Shown here: positions 47,324 to 47,974 of the stretch, piece after piece
Position numbering within the stretch: the stretch's first letter is position 1
Layout: every line of letters begins with the position of its first letter
Virus record (IMG/VR): IMGVR_UViG_3300045988_162923
DNA length: 64,000 nt
From: a virus
Direction: 5' to 3' (one strand)
The notes under the pieces: generated by a model
The model's input: the letters and a program-made list of their open reading frames with translations, nothing else
Database searches by the model: none
What the model was told of the DNA's origin: nothing
Translations under genes and position numbers: made by a program

Positions 47324-47974
47324 TTAACCATATTGTTTCCATCTTTCACAAATTAATTTATGCGCGCTTTTTGGGAAATATAATATTTCACCAGTGGTAA
47401 AAGTTAAATAGTTTGAGTTCATTGAACTAATATAATTTAAATTAATTAATAAACTTGGTGCGACAAAGACAAAATCTGGATTATCTTTTAAAGTACCTAT
47501 CATTTTTTCAAAGGATTTTTTTAAAGTTGTACTTTGAATTAATTCACCATCATAGAAATGACAAGTTAAATTTCTTCCTATAATATCAGCATATAATAAT
47601 TCTTTAAGTGGAATTCTTTCTTCCCCATCTTTAGTTCTTAAATATCTATATTCACTTCTAATTTTTTCAAATAATCTATCTAAAGTATCATTTATTTCTT
47701 CTATATTTATAGGTTTTAATAAATAATTAAATGCTTTTACTTTATAAGTTTGTGGTCCATAATTACGCTAATCAGTTATATAAATTATTTCACATTTTTC
47801 ATTTTTTTGTTTTAATATTTTCCCAAGCTCAATGCCATTCATATCTCTAATTAAAATACCCAAGAAATAGACGTCATAGATTGGTTGTCTTAATAAATCT
47901 TTAGCATTATTAAAATAATTTATATTTCCCATTACATTATGTTTAAAAAAATAATCCTTAATAATAGTAATCAT
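47324..47974 (-). CDS. LytTR-family (AgrA/ComE-like) regulator with a degenerate receiver domain, 216 aa
   Basis: Track ORF 47768..47974 continues through TAG 47768-47770 to TAA 47324-47326. The C-terminal half reads ...RIPLKELLYADIIGRNLTCHFYDGELIQSTTLKKSFEKMIGTLKDNPDFVFVAPSLLINLNYISSMNSNYLTFTTGEILYF..., a LytTR DNA-binding domain. The N-terminal CheY-like domain lacks the acidic pocket (IIKDYFF where DD is expected) and has G where the phospho-Asp belongs (YFLGILIRDMNG). Confidence 0.6.

What the first reader, a model, noticed from the sequence alone, without database searches (positions are those of the whole stretch)
47324..47974. Phage-encoded LytTR regulator with a non-phosphorylatable receiver, placed between the late and early modules
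The LytTR DNA-binding domain is clear. The N-terminal CheY-like domain has lost the Asp-Asp pocket and the phospho-acceptor Asp (G in YFLGI). This would be an atypical, kinase-independent response regulator. AgrA, ComE and PlnC-type LytTR proteins control quorum-sensing, bacteriocin or toxin operons. Here the gene is transcribed divergently from the 48251..51118 cassette and convergently with the late operon. It is a candidate lysis/lysogeny or cassette regulator.
Basis: partly seen in the sequence, partly recalled or inferred. Interest (0 to 1): 0.6.

Follow-up and report, generated by a model that had tools for sequence, protein, structure and literature searches.

The report
Aspartate-less LytTR regulator in recoded phage
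A large gut phage that reads the TAG stop codon as an amino acid carries a bacterial-type two-component DNA-binding regulator whose phosphorylation site is glycine; it probably controls the six genes of unknown function next to it, which makes it an interesting variant of a known kind rather than a new kind of system.

Summary
Under the standard code it is split by an in-frame TAG. The whole window uses TAG as a sense codon: ORF coverage is 41% under code 11 and 95.5% with TAG read through, and none of 42 genes ends in TAG. The true gene is 47324..48022 (-), 232 aa. It has two in-frame TAGs and an AUA start 6 nt after GGAGGAG. The extra 16 N-terminal residues restore strand beta-1 and acidic residues (D-R-D-D), so the pocket is not simply lost.

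The phospho-acceptor is Gly55, encoded GGT, GGA or GGG across lineages. Thr and Lys are kept. Near-identical phages carry Asp (GAT) instead. The LytTR fold is confirmed by structure (ComE, AgrA), although the Pfam hit is below threshold.

The protein belongs to a family of at least 325 proteins. In all 11 lineages examined the gene sits between the holin and a divergent six-gene cassette. No kinase appeared within 8 kb in the seven lineages checked. Same-orientation TC[AG]CA boxes are enriched in the shared intergenic region (24 against 3.1±1.7 expected). One box lies at a fixed distance from a cassette promoter with no -35 element.

The best reading is a phosphorylation-independent local activator of the cassette. 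Binding is inferred, not shown.

The parts
47324..48022 (-). Regulator gene, 232 codons plus TAA stop. It encodes a pseudo-receiver (about residues 1-120) and a LytTR DNA-binding domain (about residues 125-232).
   Evidence: Pfam Response_reg 41.8 bits over profile 2-110. phrog_8810 matches full length at E 6e-32. AF2 pLDDT 91.3. Foldseek hits ComE 4cbv at E 6e-12 and AgrA LytTR domains at TM 0.77-0.79.
48020..48022 (-). Proposed AUA start codon. ATT at 48026-48028 is the less likely alternative.
   Evidence: There is no ATG, GTG or TTG between the upstream TAA (48041-48043) and the ATG at 47974. The ATA (ATT in L005) aligns exactly with the ATG of L013, L014 and L003, and lies 6 nt after GGAGGAG. 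This is an inference and has not been tested.
48029..48035 (-). Shine-Dalgarno sequence GGAGGAG of the regulator gene.
   Evidence: Read directly from the sequence. Identical in L001, L002 and L005.
47978..47980 (-). In-frame TAG, codon 15, read as a sense codon.
   Evidence: Conserved as TAG in L001, L002, L005 and L020, with conserved flanking peptide SHGq.
47768..47770 (-). In-frame TAG, codon 85, read as a sense codon.
   Evidence: Database proteins P0001-P0011 are called with Gln at this position.
47858..47860 (-). Codon 55, GGT (Gly), at the phospho-acceptor position.
   Evidence: Alignments. Codons are GGT (window, L001, L008), GGA (L005) and GGG (L003), against GAT in L002 and L020.
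48069..48097 (-). Sigma-70-type promoter of the regulator gene: TAGACT, 17 nt, TGgTATAAT (extended -10).
   Evidence: Conserved as TTGACT/TTGGAT ... TG.TATAAT in all relatives. It is the same type as the promoters before early genes at 53806-53860 and 62247-62301.
47285..47313 (.). Bidirectional intrinsic terminator between the holin gene and the regulator gene.
   Evidence: 13-pair stem with 7 GC pairs, and T runs on both strands.
48146..48160 (-). Box 1, the candidate operator. It reads TACTCACACTTTTTT on the regulator strand (+ strand AAAAAAGTGTGAGTA); the core TCACA is at 48153-48157.
   Evidence: Invariant in window, L001, L002, L005 and L003. The core is present at the same place in 10 of 11 lineages. 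Oriented TC[AG]CA is enriched, 24 against 3.1±1.7. It is the only CTCACA in 64 kb.
48124..48133 (-). Weak second box (CTTCCGCACC on the regulator strand), 27 nt from box 1.
   Evidence: Conserved between the window and L005, and degenerate elsewhere. Its status is uncertain.
48190..48202 (+). Conserved -10-like element of the cassette promoter (TATATATCTATGG). No -35 match lies upstream of it.
   Evidence: When sequences are anchored on box 1, this element is in register in all 11 lineages without gaps. The consensus is ATATA.TAATG(G/A)A. The transcription start has not been mapped.
48199..48226 (+). Hairpin in the cassette 5' leader (ATGGAAGAA...TTCTTCTAT) followed by a U-rich run.
   Evidence: A hairpin with a different stem sequence is found in 7 of 11 lineages and is absent in 4.
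48251..51118 (+). Divergent six-gene cassette of unknown function: phrog_21718, an 81-aa protein, the membrane protein phrog_16490, the all-beta protein phrog_20016, a 160-aa protein, and a small HExxH peptidase-like protein.
   Evidence: The same six-gene block, where the locus reaches that far, is divergent from the regulator gene in L003, L005, L008 and L013-L019.
46888..47277 (+). Holin gene, the last gene of the late block, convergent with the regulator gene.
   Evidence: phrog_13712 holin at E 5e-35. A gene of 128-133 aa occupies this position in nearly all relatives.

Best explanation
This is an intact phage gene for a two-domain transcription factor of the LytR/AgrA (LytTR) response-regulator family. 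Its receiver is an aspartate-less pseudo-receiver. It is transcribed from a host sigma-A-type extended -10 promoter. It is translated from an AUA start, and only where TAG is decoded as an amino acid, because it has two in-frame TAGs. Gly replaces the acceptor Asp and no kinase gene is linked, so the protein most likely works without phosphorylation; its amount would set its activity. The proposed mechanism is that the LytTR domain binds same-orientation TC[AG]CA boxes in the 230-bp region it shares with the divergent six-gene cassette. The main box sits about 30 nt upstream of a conserved -10-like element that has no -35 partner, which is the position expected for an activator. In several relatives, boxes also overlap the regulator's own promoter, which would give autoregulation. 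Shown: gene integrity under TAG-sense decoding, domain folds, Gly at the acceptor, conserved synteny, and box conservation, orientation and enrichment. Inferred: the AUA start, phosphorylation independence, that this protein binds the boxes, and the sign of regulation.
For: Recoding:
- ORF coverage is 41% under code 11 and 95.5% with TAG read through.
- In-frame TAGs occur in nearly every gene.
- None of 42 genes ends in TAG.
- A TAG falls on the conserved Gln of the NrdD GNQ motif.

Gene model.

Domains:
- Response_reg scores 41.8 bits over profile positions 2-110.
- A profile of the family hits full-length ComE 4cbv.
- The AF2 model has pLDDT 91.3.
- Foldseek hits ComE at E 6e-12 and the AgrA LytTR domain at TM 0.77-0.79, rmsd 2.5.

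Acceptor:
- Gly sits in a column that is at least 90% Asp.
- Gly is encoded by GGT, GGA and GGG in lineages of 100%, 77%, 44% and 33% identity.
- Relatives show further decay of the site: DRNS; CSYWTD with Lys changed to Tyr; and CYQN with Thr changed to Gly, Lys changed to Glu and a loop deletion.
- The receiver diverges faster than the LytTR domain in 5 of 5 comparisons.

No HisKA or HATPase domain is recorded within 8 kb in seven lineages.

Synteny: the regulator gene is divergent from the cassette in all 11 lineages, and convergent with a holin-sized gene in 9 of them (the same calls plus 82-85).

Operator:
- A 15-mer is invariant down to 33% protein identity.
- The box and the -10-like element stay in register in 11 of 11 lineages.
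- TC[AG]CA occurs 24 times on the regulator strand and 2 times on the other. Shuffles give 3.1±1.7, and 0 of 500 reach 24.
- Box pairs are spaced 21-23 bp apart in four lineages, and boxes lie inside the regulator promoter spacer in five.
- The box is unique in the 64-kb window.
Against: - No experiment links the protein to the boxes. They could belong to another factor or to a phage-specific promoter class.
- The window has only one exact box, no pair, and none at the regulator's promoter.
- TC[AG]CA does not resemble published LytTR consensus sites (from my own knowledge).
- One lineage (L008) lacks the box and has TTCCAACGG twice instead.
- Asp at the acceptor in near-identical phages, and in 107 of 120 members of the wider family, leaves room for phosphorylation in other alleles.
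- Only 64 kb of a roughly 125-200 kb genome was seen, so a phage kinase elsewhere is not excluded.
- The AUA start is inferred from alignment only.
- A covariation test between a putative DNA-contact Arg and the box sequence failed.
Confidence: 0.5

Rival explanations
1. It is an ordinary, phosphorylation-controlled response regulator that plugs into a host (or distant phage-encoded) histidine kinase. The Gly allele would be a recent loss-of-function or constitutive variant.
For: Thr83, Lys103 and acidic residues D8, D10 and D11 are kept. Phages 94-97% identical carry Asp (GAT) at the site. 107 of 120 wider-family members keep Asp and 111 of 120 keep Lys.
Against: Gly is the common allele: cluster P0001 has 219 member sequences. 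Gly is present in outgroups at 77%, 44% and 33% identity with three synonymous codons, so it is old and maintained. The Asp alleles nest inside the Gly clade. The first acidic-pocket residue is Ser in most of the family, and Thr is replaced by Gly in 46 of 120. No kinase lies within 8 kb in seven lineages.
Confidence: 0.12
2. It is the phage's global late-gene or lysis-timing regulator, or a lysis/lysogeny switch, rather than a local cassette regulator.
For: It sits next to the holin at the late/early boundary. From my own knowledge, the family's founding member LytR controls holin/antiholin-like lrgAB. The gene has an early-type promoter.
Against: It is convergent with the holin and separated from it by a terminator. 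The conserved box occurs once in 64 kb, and late intergenic regions carry other motifs: a terminator followed by TATAAATA/TTTTATATAT-like sequence. No integrase or repressor is seen in the window or flanks.
Confidence: 0.15
3. The protein targets the host. It binds host promoters, or heterodimerises with host AgrA/LytR-type regulators through its pseudo-receiver, to subvert quorum sensing or autolysis control. The intergenic boxes would belong to a different factor.
For: The nearest non-phage relatives are Clostridia-type LytR/AlgR regulators at 25-32% identity. Phage capture of agr components is documented (PMC11945551).
Against: The family is monophyletic, is fixed in one genomic position, and has co-inherited with the cassette and its boxes across deep divergence. 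That pattern fits a phage-internal circuit better. No host data are available.
Confidence: 0.15
4. It is a decaying pseudogene, interrupted by stop codons and lacking a proper start.
For: Under code 11 there are two in-frame TAGs and no ATG, GTG or TTG start for the full-length frame.
Against: TAG is a sense codon throughout the window. The TAGs and the reading frame are conserved in relatives with synonymous changes. At least 325 family members exist, with a conserved LytTR domain. The structure model is confident.
Confidence: 0.02

Closest known systems
AgrA (Staphylococcus aureus) and ComE (Streptococcus pneumoniae): LytTR-family response regulators
   Same: Same two-domain architecture and folds. 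Full-length ComE 4cbv is the best structural match, and AgrA LytTR domains match at TM 0.77-0.79. The N-terminal and beta-3 motifs are similar (ICDRDD/ICEDD, YFLGI/YFLDI). In relatives, same-orientation repeated boxes occur at 21-23 bp spacing upstream of a weak promoter.
   Different: The acceptor Asp is Gly. There is no adjacent kinase or peptide-signal genes. The box core TC[AG]CA is unlike their published sites (from my own knowledge). The gene is phage-encoded and uses TAG as a sense codon. NCBIfam equivalog scores are far below cut-off: AgrA 26 against 400, LytR 44 against 375.
Bacterial pseudo-receiver / aspartate-less receiver (ALR) atypical response regulators, as defined in PMC12632262 (for example ChxR, HP1043, GlnR, RitR)
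   Same: It is recognised as a receiver but lacks one of the five catalytic residues, here the phosphorylation site itself (for the definition). The expected behaviour is phosphorylation-independent DNA binding.
   Different: The characterised examples I know of have OmpR- or NarL-type output domains and are chromosomal. This one has a LytTR output, is a conserved phage gene, and toggles between Gly and Asp among near-identical genomes.
Phage-borne agr/LytTR genes (C. difficile phages phiCDHM1, LIBA2945/LIBA6276 'two-component response regulator'; Pseudomonas phage LytTR proteins)
   Same: These are phage-encoded members of the same superfamily (PMC11945551).
   Different: They share only 22-29% identity. 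They are thought to be recent captures from hosts that interface with host quorum sensing. Here the regulator belongs to its own phage-specific family (phrog_8810; at least 325 proteins) with fixed synteny. The family is absent from the 50,697 deposited phage genomes searched.
TAG-recoded (code 15) gut phages: Phassvirus group (PMC10607447) and the recoded clades of Borges et al. (bioRxiv 10.1101/2021.08.26.457843)
   Same: TAG is used as a sense codon in structural and other genes. The genome is low in GC and large. The DNA polymerase is 43% identical to that of phAss-1, and a similar 41-42.5% to Enterococcus EF1-like and SPbeta-like phages. A Clostridia host is suspected.
   Different: There is no nucleotide similarity to any deposited phage. 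The phAss-1 paper mentions no response regulator, and searches of the deposited phage genomes, which include phAss-1, found no family member. Here early genes are also recoded, though less so: TAG makes up 26% of Gln-type codons against 49% in late genes.

Membership tests
Response-regulator receiver domain (REC, PF00072) | Sequence and fold of the (beta-alpha)5 receiver | tested here: met
   41.8 bits against a cut-off of 30.2, over profile positions 2-110 of 111 with the N-terminal extension. The AF2 model shows alternating strands and helices, and receiver structures match it.
Response-regulator receiver domain (REC, PF00072) | Phospho-acceptor Asp at the end of strand beta-3 | tested here: not met
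   Gly55 (GGT, 47858-47860) sits in a column that is at least 90% Asp. By the definition in PMC12632262 this makes it an aspartate-less pseudo-receiver.
Response-regulator receiver domain (REC, PF00072) | Two acidic metal-binding residues after strand beta-1 (DD) | tested here: inconclusive
   The sequence is C-D8-R9-D10-D11. Depending on where the one-residue insertion is placed, the second metal-binding position is Arg or Asp. The 77% relative has D-R-N-S. The region could not be modelled because the tool refuses the TAG-as-Gln sequence.
Response-regulator receiver domain (REC, PF00072) | Conserved Thr/Ser (beta-4) and Lys (beta-5) | tested here: met
   Thr83 (IYIT) and Lys103 (LLKP). They lie at the ends of strands E62-67 and E83-86 of the 216-aa model.
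LytTR DNA-binding domain (PF04397) | Pfam model at the gathering score | tested here: not met
   17.8 bits against a cut-off of 22.6, E 0.004.
LytTR DNA-binding domain (PF04397) | The LytTR beta-fold | tested here: met
   AF2 pLDDT is 89-97 over residues 110-216. Foldseek matches AgrA LytTR structures 4xqj, 4g4k and 3bs1 at TM 0.74-0.79, rmsd 2.4-2.7, and full-length ComE at E 6e-12. A profile of the family hits ComE over positions 1-203.
LytTR DNA-binding domain (PF04397) | Binding to paired direct repeats with a period of about 21 bp | tested here: inconclusive
   There is no pair above chance in the window. Oriented TC[AG]CA boxes are spaced 21-23 bp apart in L003, L017, L018 and L019. Binding itself cannot be tested with these tools.
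Agr/Com-type quorum-sensing two-component system | Cognate histidine kinase (and peptide-signal genes) encoded next to the regulator | tested here: not met
   No HisKA or HATPase Pfam hit is recorded within 8 kb in L003, L005, L008, L013, L014 or L015, nor in the window's neighbouring genes. The rest of the roughly 125-200 kb genome was not seen.
Agr/Com-type quorum-sensing two-component system | NCBIfam equivalog score for AgrA, LytR or BtsR | tested here: not met
   AgrA 26.1 against 400, LytR 44.3 against 375, BtsR 40.6 against 246.
TAG-recoded (genetic code 15) phage | In-frame TAG in most genes, TAG not used as a terminator | tested here: met
   376 in-frame TAGs were counted, and stops are TAA in 32 genes and TGA in 10.
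TAG-recoded (genetic code 15) phage | TAG decoded as Gln; suppressor tRNA(CUA) present | tested here: inconclusive
   One TAG falls on the conserved Gln of the NrdD GNQ motif, while other TAGs fall on variable columns. No tRNA lies in this 64-kb window. The remainder of the genome is unavailable.
Stand-alone LytTR regulatory systems (HdrRM/BrsRM type) | LytTR protein without a receiver, paired with a membrane inhibitor gene in one operon | tested here: not met
   A receiver domain is present. The regulator gene is monocistronic, lying between its promoter and a terminator.

The most novel reading that the evidence does not exclude
A clade of uncultivated 125-200 kb TAG-recoded Clostridia phages has domesticated a LytTR response regulator as a core, kinase-blind transcription factor. 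It would be made only once amber suppression is running, because of its two in-frame TAGs and a weak AUA start. It would then switch on a six-gene module that lacks a -35 element, through same-orientation TC[AG]CA boxes. The Gly/Asp toggle at the acceptor site among near-identical phages would be a natural switch between kinase-independent and kinase-responsive versions of the same circuit.
Probability: 0.25. Interest if true: 0.6.

Novelty: new variant of a known kind. Interest (0 to 1): 0.45.

Why it matters
Pseudo-receivers are common, but how they are controlled is largely unknown (PMC12632262). This is a compact natural case. A LytTR regulator has Gly and Asp alleles at the phosphorylation site in otherwise near-identical genomes. 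It has a single obvious target region and a fixed gene neighbourhood, so the question of what replaces phosphorylation becomes directly testable. It also assigns a candidate regulator and operator to a six-gene module of unknown function, at least one gene of which also occurs in temperate gut phages such as Butyrivibrio virus Ceridwen. Finally, it shows how standard-code gene calling mis-shapes regulators in recoded phages: wrong start, split ORF, and an apparently missing active site. The stakes are moderate. No new class of mechanism is implied.

Tried and rejected
2. Paired 9-mers at 19-23 bp spacing in the window: not above chance. The repeat finder reports none.
3. Box 1 as a general late-promoter motif: it is unique in 64 kb.
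4. Covariation between the Arg before the C-terminal Trp (an AgrA R233-like position) and the box sequence: refuted when L017-L019 (Ala-Trp) proved to carry the same ACTCACA box.
5. Depletion of CTCACA as evidence of selection against stray sites: striking in the window (1 against 14.8±4.1, the rarest of 60 same-composition hexamers). It was not reproduced in the short loci of relatives, so it is only a hint. Restriction avoidance or codon bias could also explain it.
6. TAG density as a clock for the cassette: per codon it matches late genes, but per Gln-type codon it matches early genes, so it is uninformative.
7. Function of the cassette: nothing from Pfam, NCBIfam or PADLOC beyond a small HExxH peptidase-like protein. 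A single-sequence AF2 model of the phrog_20016 fragment failed with pLDDT 40.
9. Close relatives among deposited phages: none by DNA. The family is absent by tblastn.
10. Rfam families in 47200-48400: only chance-level hits on the terminator.
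Full report
**1. What is at the coordinates.**

Under the standard bacterial code the interval 47324-47974 (-) is not one ORF. The ORF listing returns a 68-aa piece (47768-47974) and a 59-aa piece (47324-47503). The in-frame translation shows a stop inside a receiver motif (YITD*RNYGPQTYKVKAFNYLLKP). That stop is TAG, and the next gene (48251) also has an early in-frame TAG.

Stop-to-stop ORFs of at least 100 aa cover 41% of the window under code 11. They cover 95.5% if TAG is read through, and 47% if TGA is read through instead. 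With TAG as sense, the window resolves into about 42 tightly packed genes. These carry 376 in-frame TAGs, including 107 in one 3065-aa gene. None of them ends in TAG: 32 end in TAA and 10 in TGA.

One TAG in the anaerobic ribonucleotide reductase gene falls on the conserved Gln of the GNQ motif of two solved homologues. The other TAGs fall on variable columns. No tRNA gene lies in the window.

The window therefore comes from a TAG-recoded phage, probably TAG = Gln.

**2. The true gene.**

The frame stays open upstream of the ATG at 47974. It runs through a second TAG (47978-47980) to a TAA at 48041-48043. A strong GGAGGAG lies at 48029-48035, but no ATG, GTG or TTG follows it.

Two IMG/VR phages (94% identity; 126 and 201 kb) have this stretch unchanged. 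A 77%-identical relative (L005) keeps the peptide (I-L-S-I-C-V-C-D-R-N-S-S-H-G-TAG). It has four synonymous changes there (GAT>GAC, AGA>AGG, TCA>TCT, GGA>GGG).

Distant relatives start with ATG-x-S/K-I-A-I-Y/C. The window's ATA (48020-48022) and L005's ATT align exactly with that ATG, 6 nt after the Shine-Dalgarno sequence.

I therefore place the gene at 47324..48022 (-). It is 232 aa long, with an inferred AUA start and two sense TAGs. With the extension, the Pfam receiver match grows from profile positions 32-110 to 2-110.

**3. The protein.**

*Receiver.* The Pfam score is 41.8 bits against a cut-off of 30.2.

*LytTR domain.* The Pfam score is only 17.8 bits against a cut-off of 22.6, so the sequence evidence alone is not clear. 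Three other results settle it:
- A family profile hits full-length ComE.
- An AF2 model of the 216-aa form, built with 80 homologues, has pLDDT 91.3.
- Foldseek returns full-length ComE first (E 6e-12), then AgrA LytTR domains at TM 0.74-0.79 and rmsd about 2.5 Å.

The fold is LytTR.

*Catalytic residues.* Residue numbers refer to the 232-aa protein.
- Acceptor: Gly55 (YFLGI). It lies in a column that is at least 90% Asp in 80 homologues, and at the end of strand beta-3 in the model.
- Thr83 and Lys103 are present.
- After strand beta-1 the sequence is C-D-R-D-D. Acidic residues are therefore present but interrupted by Arg, and their register is ambiguous.

By the definition in PMC12632262 this is an aspartate-less pseudo-receiver.

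**4. Is Gly a fluke?**

Gly is not a one-off. The identical protein cluster has 219 member sequences. Gly is also found in relatives at 77% (L005), 44% (L008) and 33% (L003) identity. It is encoded by GGT, GGA, GGT and GGG respectively, so it has persisted through synonymous change.

Those relatives show further decay of the active site:
- L005 has DRNS.
- L008 has CSYWTD, with Lys changed to Tyr.
- L003 has CYQN, with Thr changed to Gly, Lys changed to Glu, and a deletion in the beta3-alpha3 loop.

However, six sequences 94-97% identical to the window protein carry Asp: P0003, P0005, P0006, P0009, L002 and L020. In the two for which DNA is held (L002, L020) the codon is GAT, one transition from GGT. 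In a neighbour-joining tree four of them (P0003, P0005, P0006 and P0009; L002 and L020 were not in the tree) nest inside the Gly clade, which suggests reversion.

In the wider family (120 members examined), the counts are:

| Position | Residues observed |
|---|---|
| Acceptor | Asp 107, Gly 8, Asn 2, Thr 1, Glu 1 |
| Lys | kept in 111 |
| Thr | Ser 55, Gly 46, Thr 11 |
| First acidic pocket residue | mostly Ser |

The acceptor has been lost several times independently. The receiver half diverges faster than the LytTR half in all five comparisons.

Taken together, this is a phage family of atypical receivers under relaxed catalytic constraint. The window allele cannot be phosphorylated at the canonical site. 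"Kinase-independent" is well supported for this allele, but it is not proven for the family.

**5. Context.**

A family-only profile search finds 325 proteins at E ≤ 1e-10. They are about 235 aa long, most have no Pfam hit, and they sit on contigs of up to 183 kb.

In all eleven lineages whose DNA I fetched, the regulator gene is divergent from the cassette. Those lineages are the window, L005, L008, L003 and L013-L019. Where the locus reaches far enough, the order is: late tail genes; a holin gene of 128-133 aa (absent in L017 and L019); a convergent terminator; the regulator gene; the divergent six-gene cassette; then a 145-aa gene, RuvC, dUTPase, NrdG and NrdD on the regulator's strand. No HisKA or HATPase domain is recorded within 8 kb in the seven lineages checked.

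The cassette proteins have no assigned function. They match phrog_21718, 16490, 20016 and 1233, and one is a small HExxH peptidase-like protein. PADLOC and NCBIfam return nothing. Homologues of the phrog_20016 protein lie just after the lysin in temperate gut phages such as Butyrivibrio virus Ceridwen and Dulem viruses.

The phage has no DNA match among 50,697 deposited phages. Its DNA polymerase is 41-43% identical to those of SPbeta-like phages, Enterococcus EF1-like phages, and the TAG-recoded phAss-1 (PMC10607447). The regulator family is absent from those collections. A 12.8-kb contig binned in a Clostridium MAG carries a 96% copy, which is a weak hint at the host.

**6. The intergenic region and a mechanism.**

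*The regulator's promoter.* The regulator gene has a near-consensus sigma-A-type promoter with an extended -10 element: TAGACT, 17 nt, TGgTATAAT, at 48097-48069. It is conserved in every lineage. It is of the same type as the promoters before the early genes. This suggests early transcription by the host polymerase.

*Box 1.* On the cassette side, a 15-mer is invariant from the window down to the 33% relative. It reads TACTCACACTTTTTT on the regulator strand, at 48146-48160.

*Fixed spacing.* Eleven lineages were aligned by anchoring on this box. A -10-like element (cassette strand ATATA.TAATG(G/A)A; window 48190-48202) then falls in register without any gap, although the roughly 30-nt spacer is not conserved. 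No -35-like hexamer is present.

*Enrichment and orientation.* The core TC[AG]CA occurs 24 times on the regulator strand of these regions and twice on the other strand. Dinucleotide shuffles give 3.1±1.7, and 0 of 500 reach 24.

*Arrangement in relatives.* In four lineages two boxes lie 21-23 bp apart, which is the classical LytTR spacing. In five lineages a box (T[GC]TC[AG]CAAAAAT) lies inside the spacer of the regulator's own promoter.

*The window itself.* It has one exact box, a weak second one 27 nt away, and none at the regulator promoter. CTCACA occurs nowhere else in the 64 kb.

*Proposed mechanism.* The most economical explanation is that the regulator binds these boxes and activates the cassette promoter from about position -47. 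Autoregulation would occur in some relatives. The supporting evidence is adjacency, co-inheritance, orientation and fixed spacing. The binding itself and its sign are inferences.

**7. Rivals.**

- A pseudogene is excluded by sections 1, 2 and 5.
- A kinase-dependent regulator is unlikely for this allele (section 4). It remains possible for the Asp alleles, and a kinase elsewhere in the genome was not searched for.
- A global late, lysis or lysogeny regulator is not supported. The gene is convergent with the holin across a terminator. The box is unique in the window. Late intergenic regions carry different motifs. No lysogeny genes are nearby.
- A host-directed role, through host promoters or heterodimers with host LytTR regulators, cannot be excluded with these data.

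**8. Comparison and verdict.**

The protein works like AgrA or ComE in fold, and probably in how it reads DNA. It fails membership of the Agr/Com quorum-sensing kind on three counts: the acceptor Asp, the linked kinase, and the equivalog scores. It fits the category of aspartate-less atypical response regulators.

Three things are new. The output domain is LytTR. It is a conserved, position-fixed gene of an undescribed clade of large TAG-recoded phages. And it shows a natural Gly/Asp polymorphism.

I found no paper describing such a phage regulator. The PHROG family it matches is annotated as unknown function.

I rate it a new variant of a known kind, with moderate interest (0.45).

Noticed in passing
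window 1-64000: The whole window is TAG-recoded. ORF coverage is 41% under code 11 and 95.5% with TAG as sense. There are 376 in-frame TAGs and no gene ends in TAG. TAG supplies 49% of Gln-type codons in late genes, 32% in the cassette and 26% in early genes. No tRNA gene lies in the window.
   Followed up: yes
window 26140-26832, 51154-51597, 52221-52751: Three genes have no TAG at all: a 230-aa structural-region protein, a 147-aa membrane protein next to the cassette, and dUTPase. At the late-gene TAG rate, about 4.7 TAGs would be expected in the first. They may need to be translated before suppression is established.
   Followed up: no
window 48153-48158 versus the rest of the window: The hexamer CTCACA/TGTGAG occurs once in 64 kb (the operator box) against 14.8±4.1 in shuffles. 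It is the rarest of the 60 hexamers with the same base composition (median 15.5). Its overlapping neighbours ACTCAC and TCACAC are also among the rarest. This could reflect avoidance of stray binding sites, restriction avoidance or codon bias. It was not reproduced in the shorter loci of relatives.
   Followed up: partly
window 48199-48226 (+); same place in L005, L003, L014, L015, L016, L008: The cassette 5' leader begins with a hairpin followed by a U-rich run. The stem sequence differs between lineages (GAAGAA/TTCTTC, GAGAGAGAT/ATCTCTCT, GAGATA/TATCTC and others). Four lineages (L013, L017-L019) have a purine-rich leader with no hairpin. It could be an attenuator or an mRNA-stabilising 5' stem.
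   Followed up: partly
window 48251-51118; L011 (Butyrivibrio virus Ceridwen), L012 (Dulem virus 33): A homologue of one cassette gene (phrog_20016) sits just after the lysin and before the integrase or lysogeny genes in small temperate gut phages; whether the neighbouring cassette genes recur there was not checked. All are annotated as hypothetical. The module may be mobile, and its function is unknown.
   Followed up: partly
window 3603-12800, 12917-18199, 28644-36383: Three giant late genes (3065, 1760 and 2579 aa) carry 107, 38 and 40 in-frame TAGs. The large gene in this neighbourhood in related loci has LRR_5 hits, so they are probably tail fibres or adhesins.
   Followed up: no
window late intergenic regions (1495-1743, 3472-3602, 26055-26139, 28524-28643, 39048-39207): Several late intergenic regions have a GC-rich terminator hairpin followed closely by a TATAAATA/TTTTATATAT-like element just before the ribosome-binding site. 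This resembles T4-type late promoters. Early genes and the regulator gene instead have TG.TATAAT extended -10 promoters.
   Followed up: no
L005 6128-6592; L014 636-1571: Homing-endonuclease genes are inserted in relatives: an HNH gene inside the cassette of L005, L006 and L007, and a GIY-YIG gene near NrdD in L014. The window has none at these sites.
   Followed up: no
L001 and L002, about 5975-6016 (upstream of the regulator start): In the 94% relatives a point difference (AAG to ATG) creates a 13-codon upstream ORF (MKGGDYHSFNMYL) in another frame. It overlaps the Shine-Dalgarno sequence and the start of the regulator gene. It is absent from the window.
   Followed up: no
L020 (JALFMW010000253.1, MAG Clostridium sp. 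SUG825): The only hit in 185,579 reference genomes is a 12.8-kb contig binned with a Clostridium MAG. It carries the Asp allele at 96% identity. This is a weak host hint and may be a binning artefact.
   Followed up: partly
L008 7772-8111: The 44% relative lacks the TCACA box. Instead it has TTCCAACGG twice, about 190 bp apart: once at the cassette-promoter position and once in the long 5' UTR of its regulator gene. Its regulator also differs in the C-terminal helix (ENLW instead of ERW). This may be a change of specificity.
   Followed up: partly
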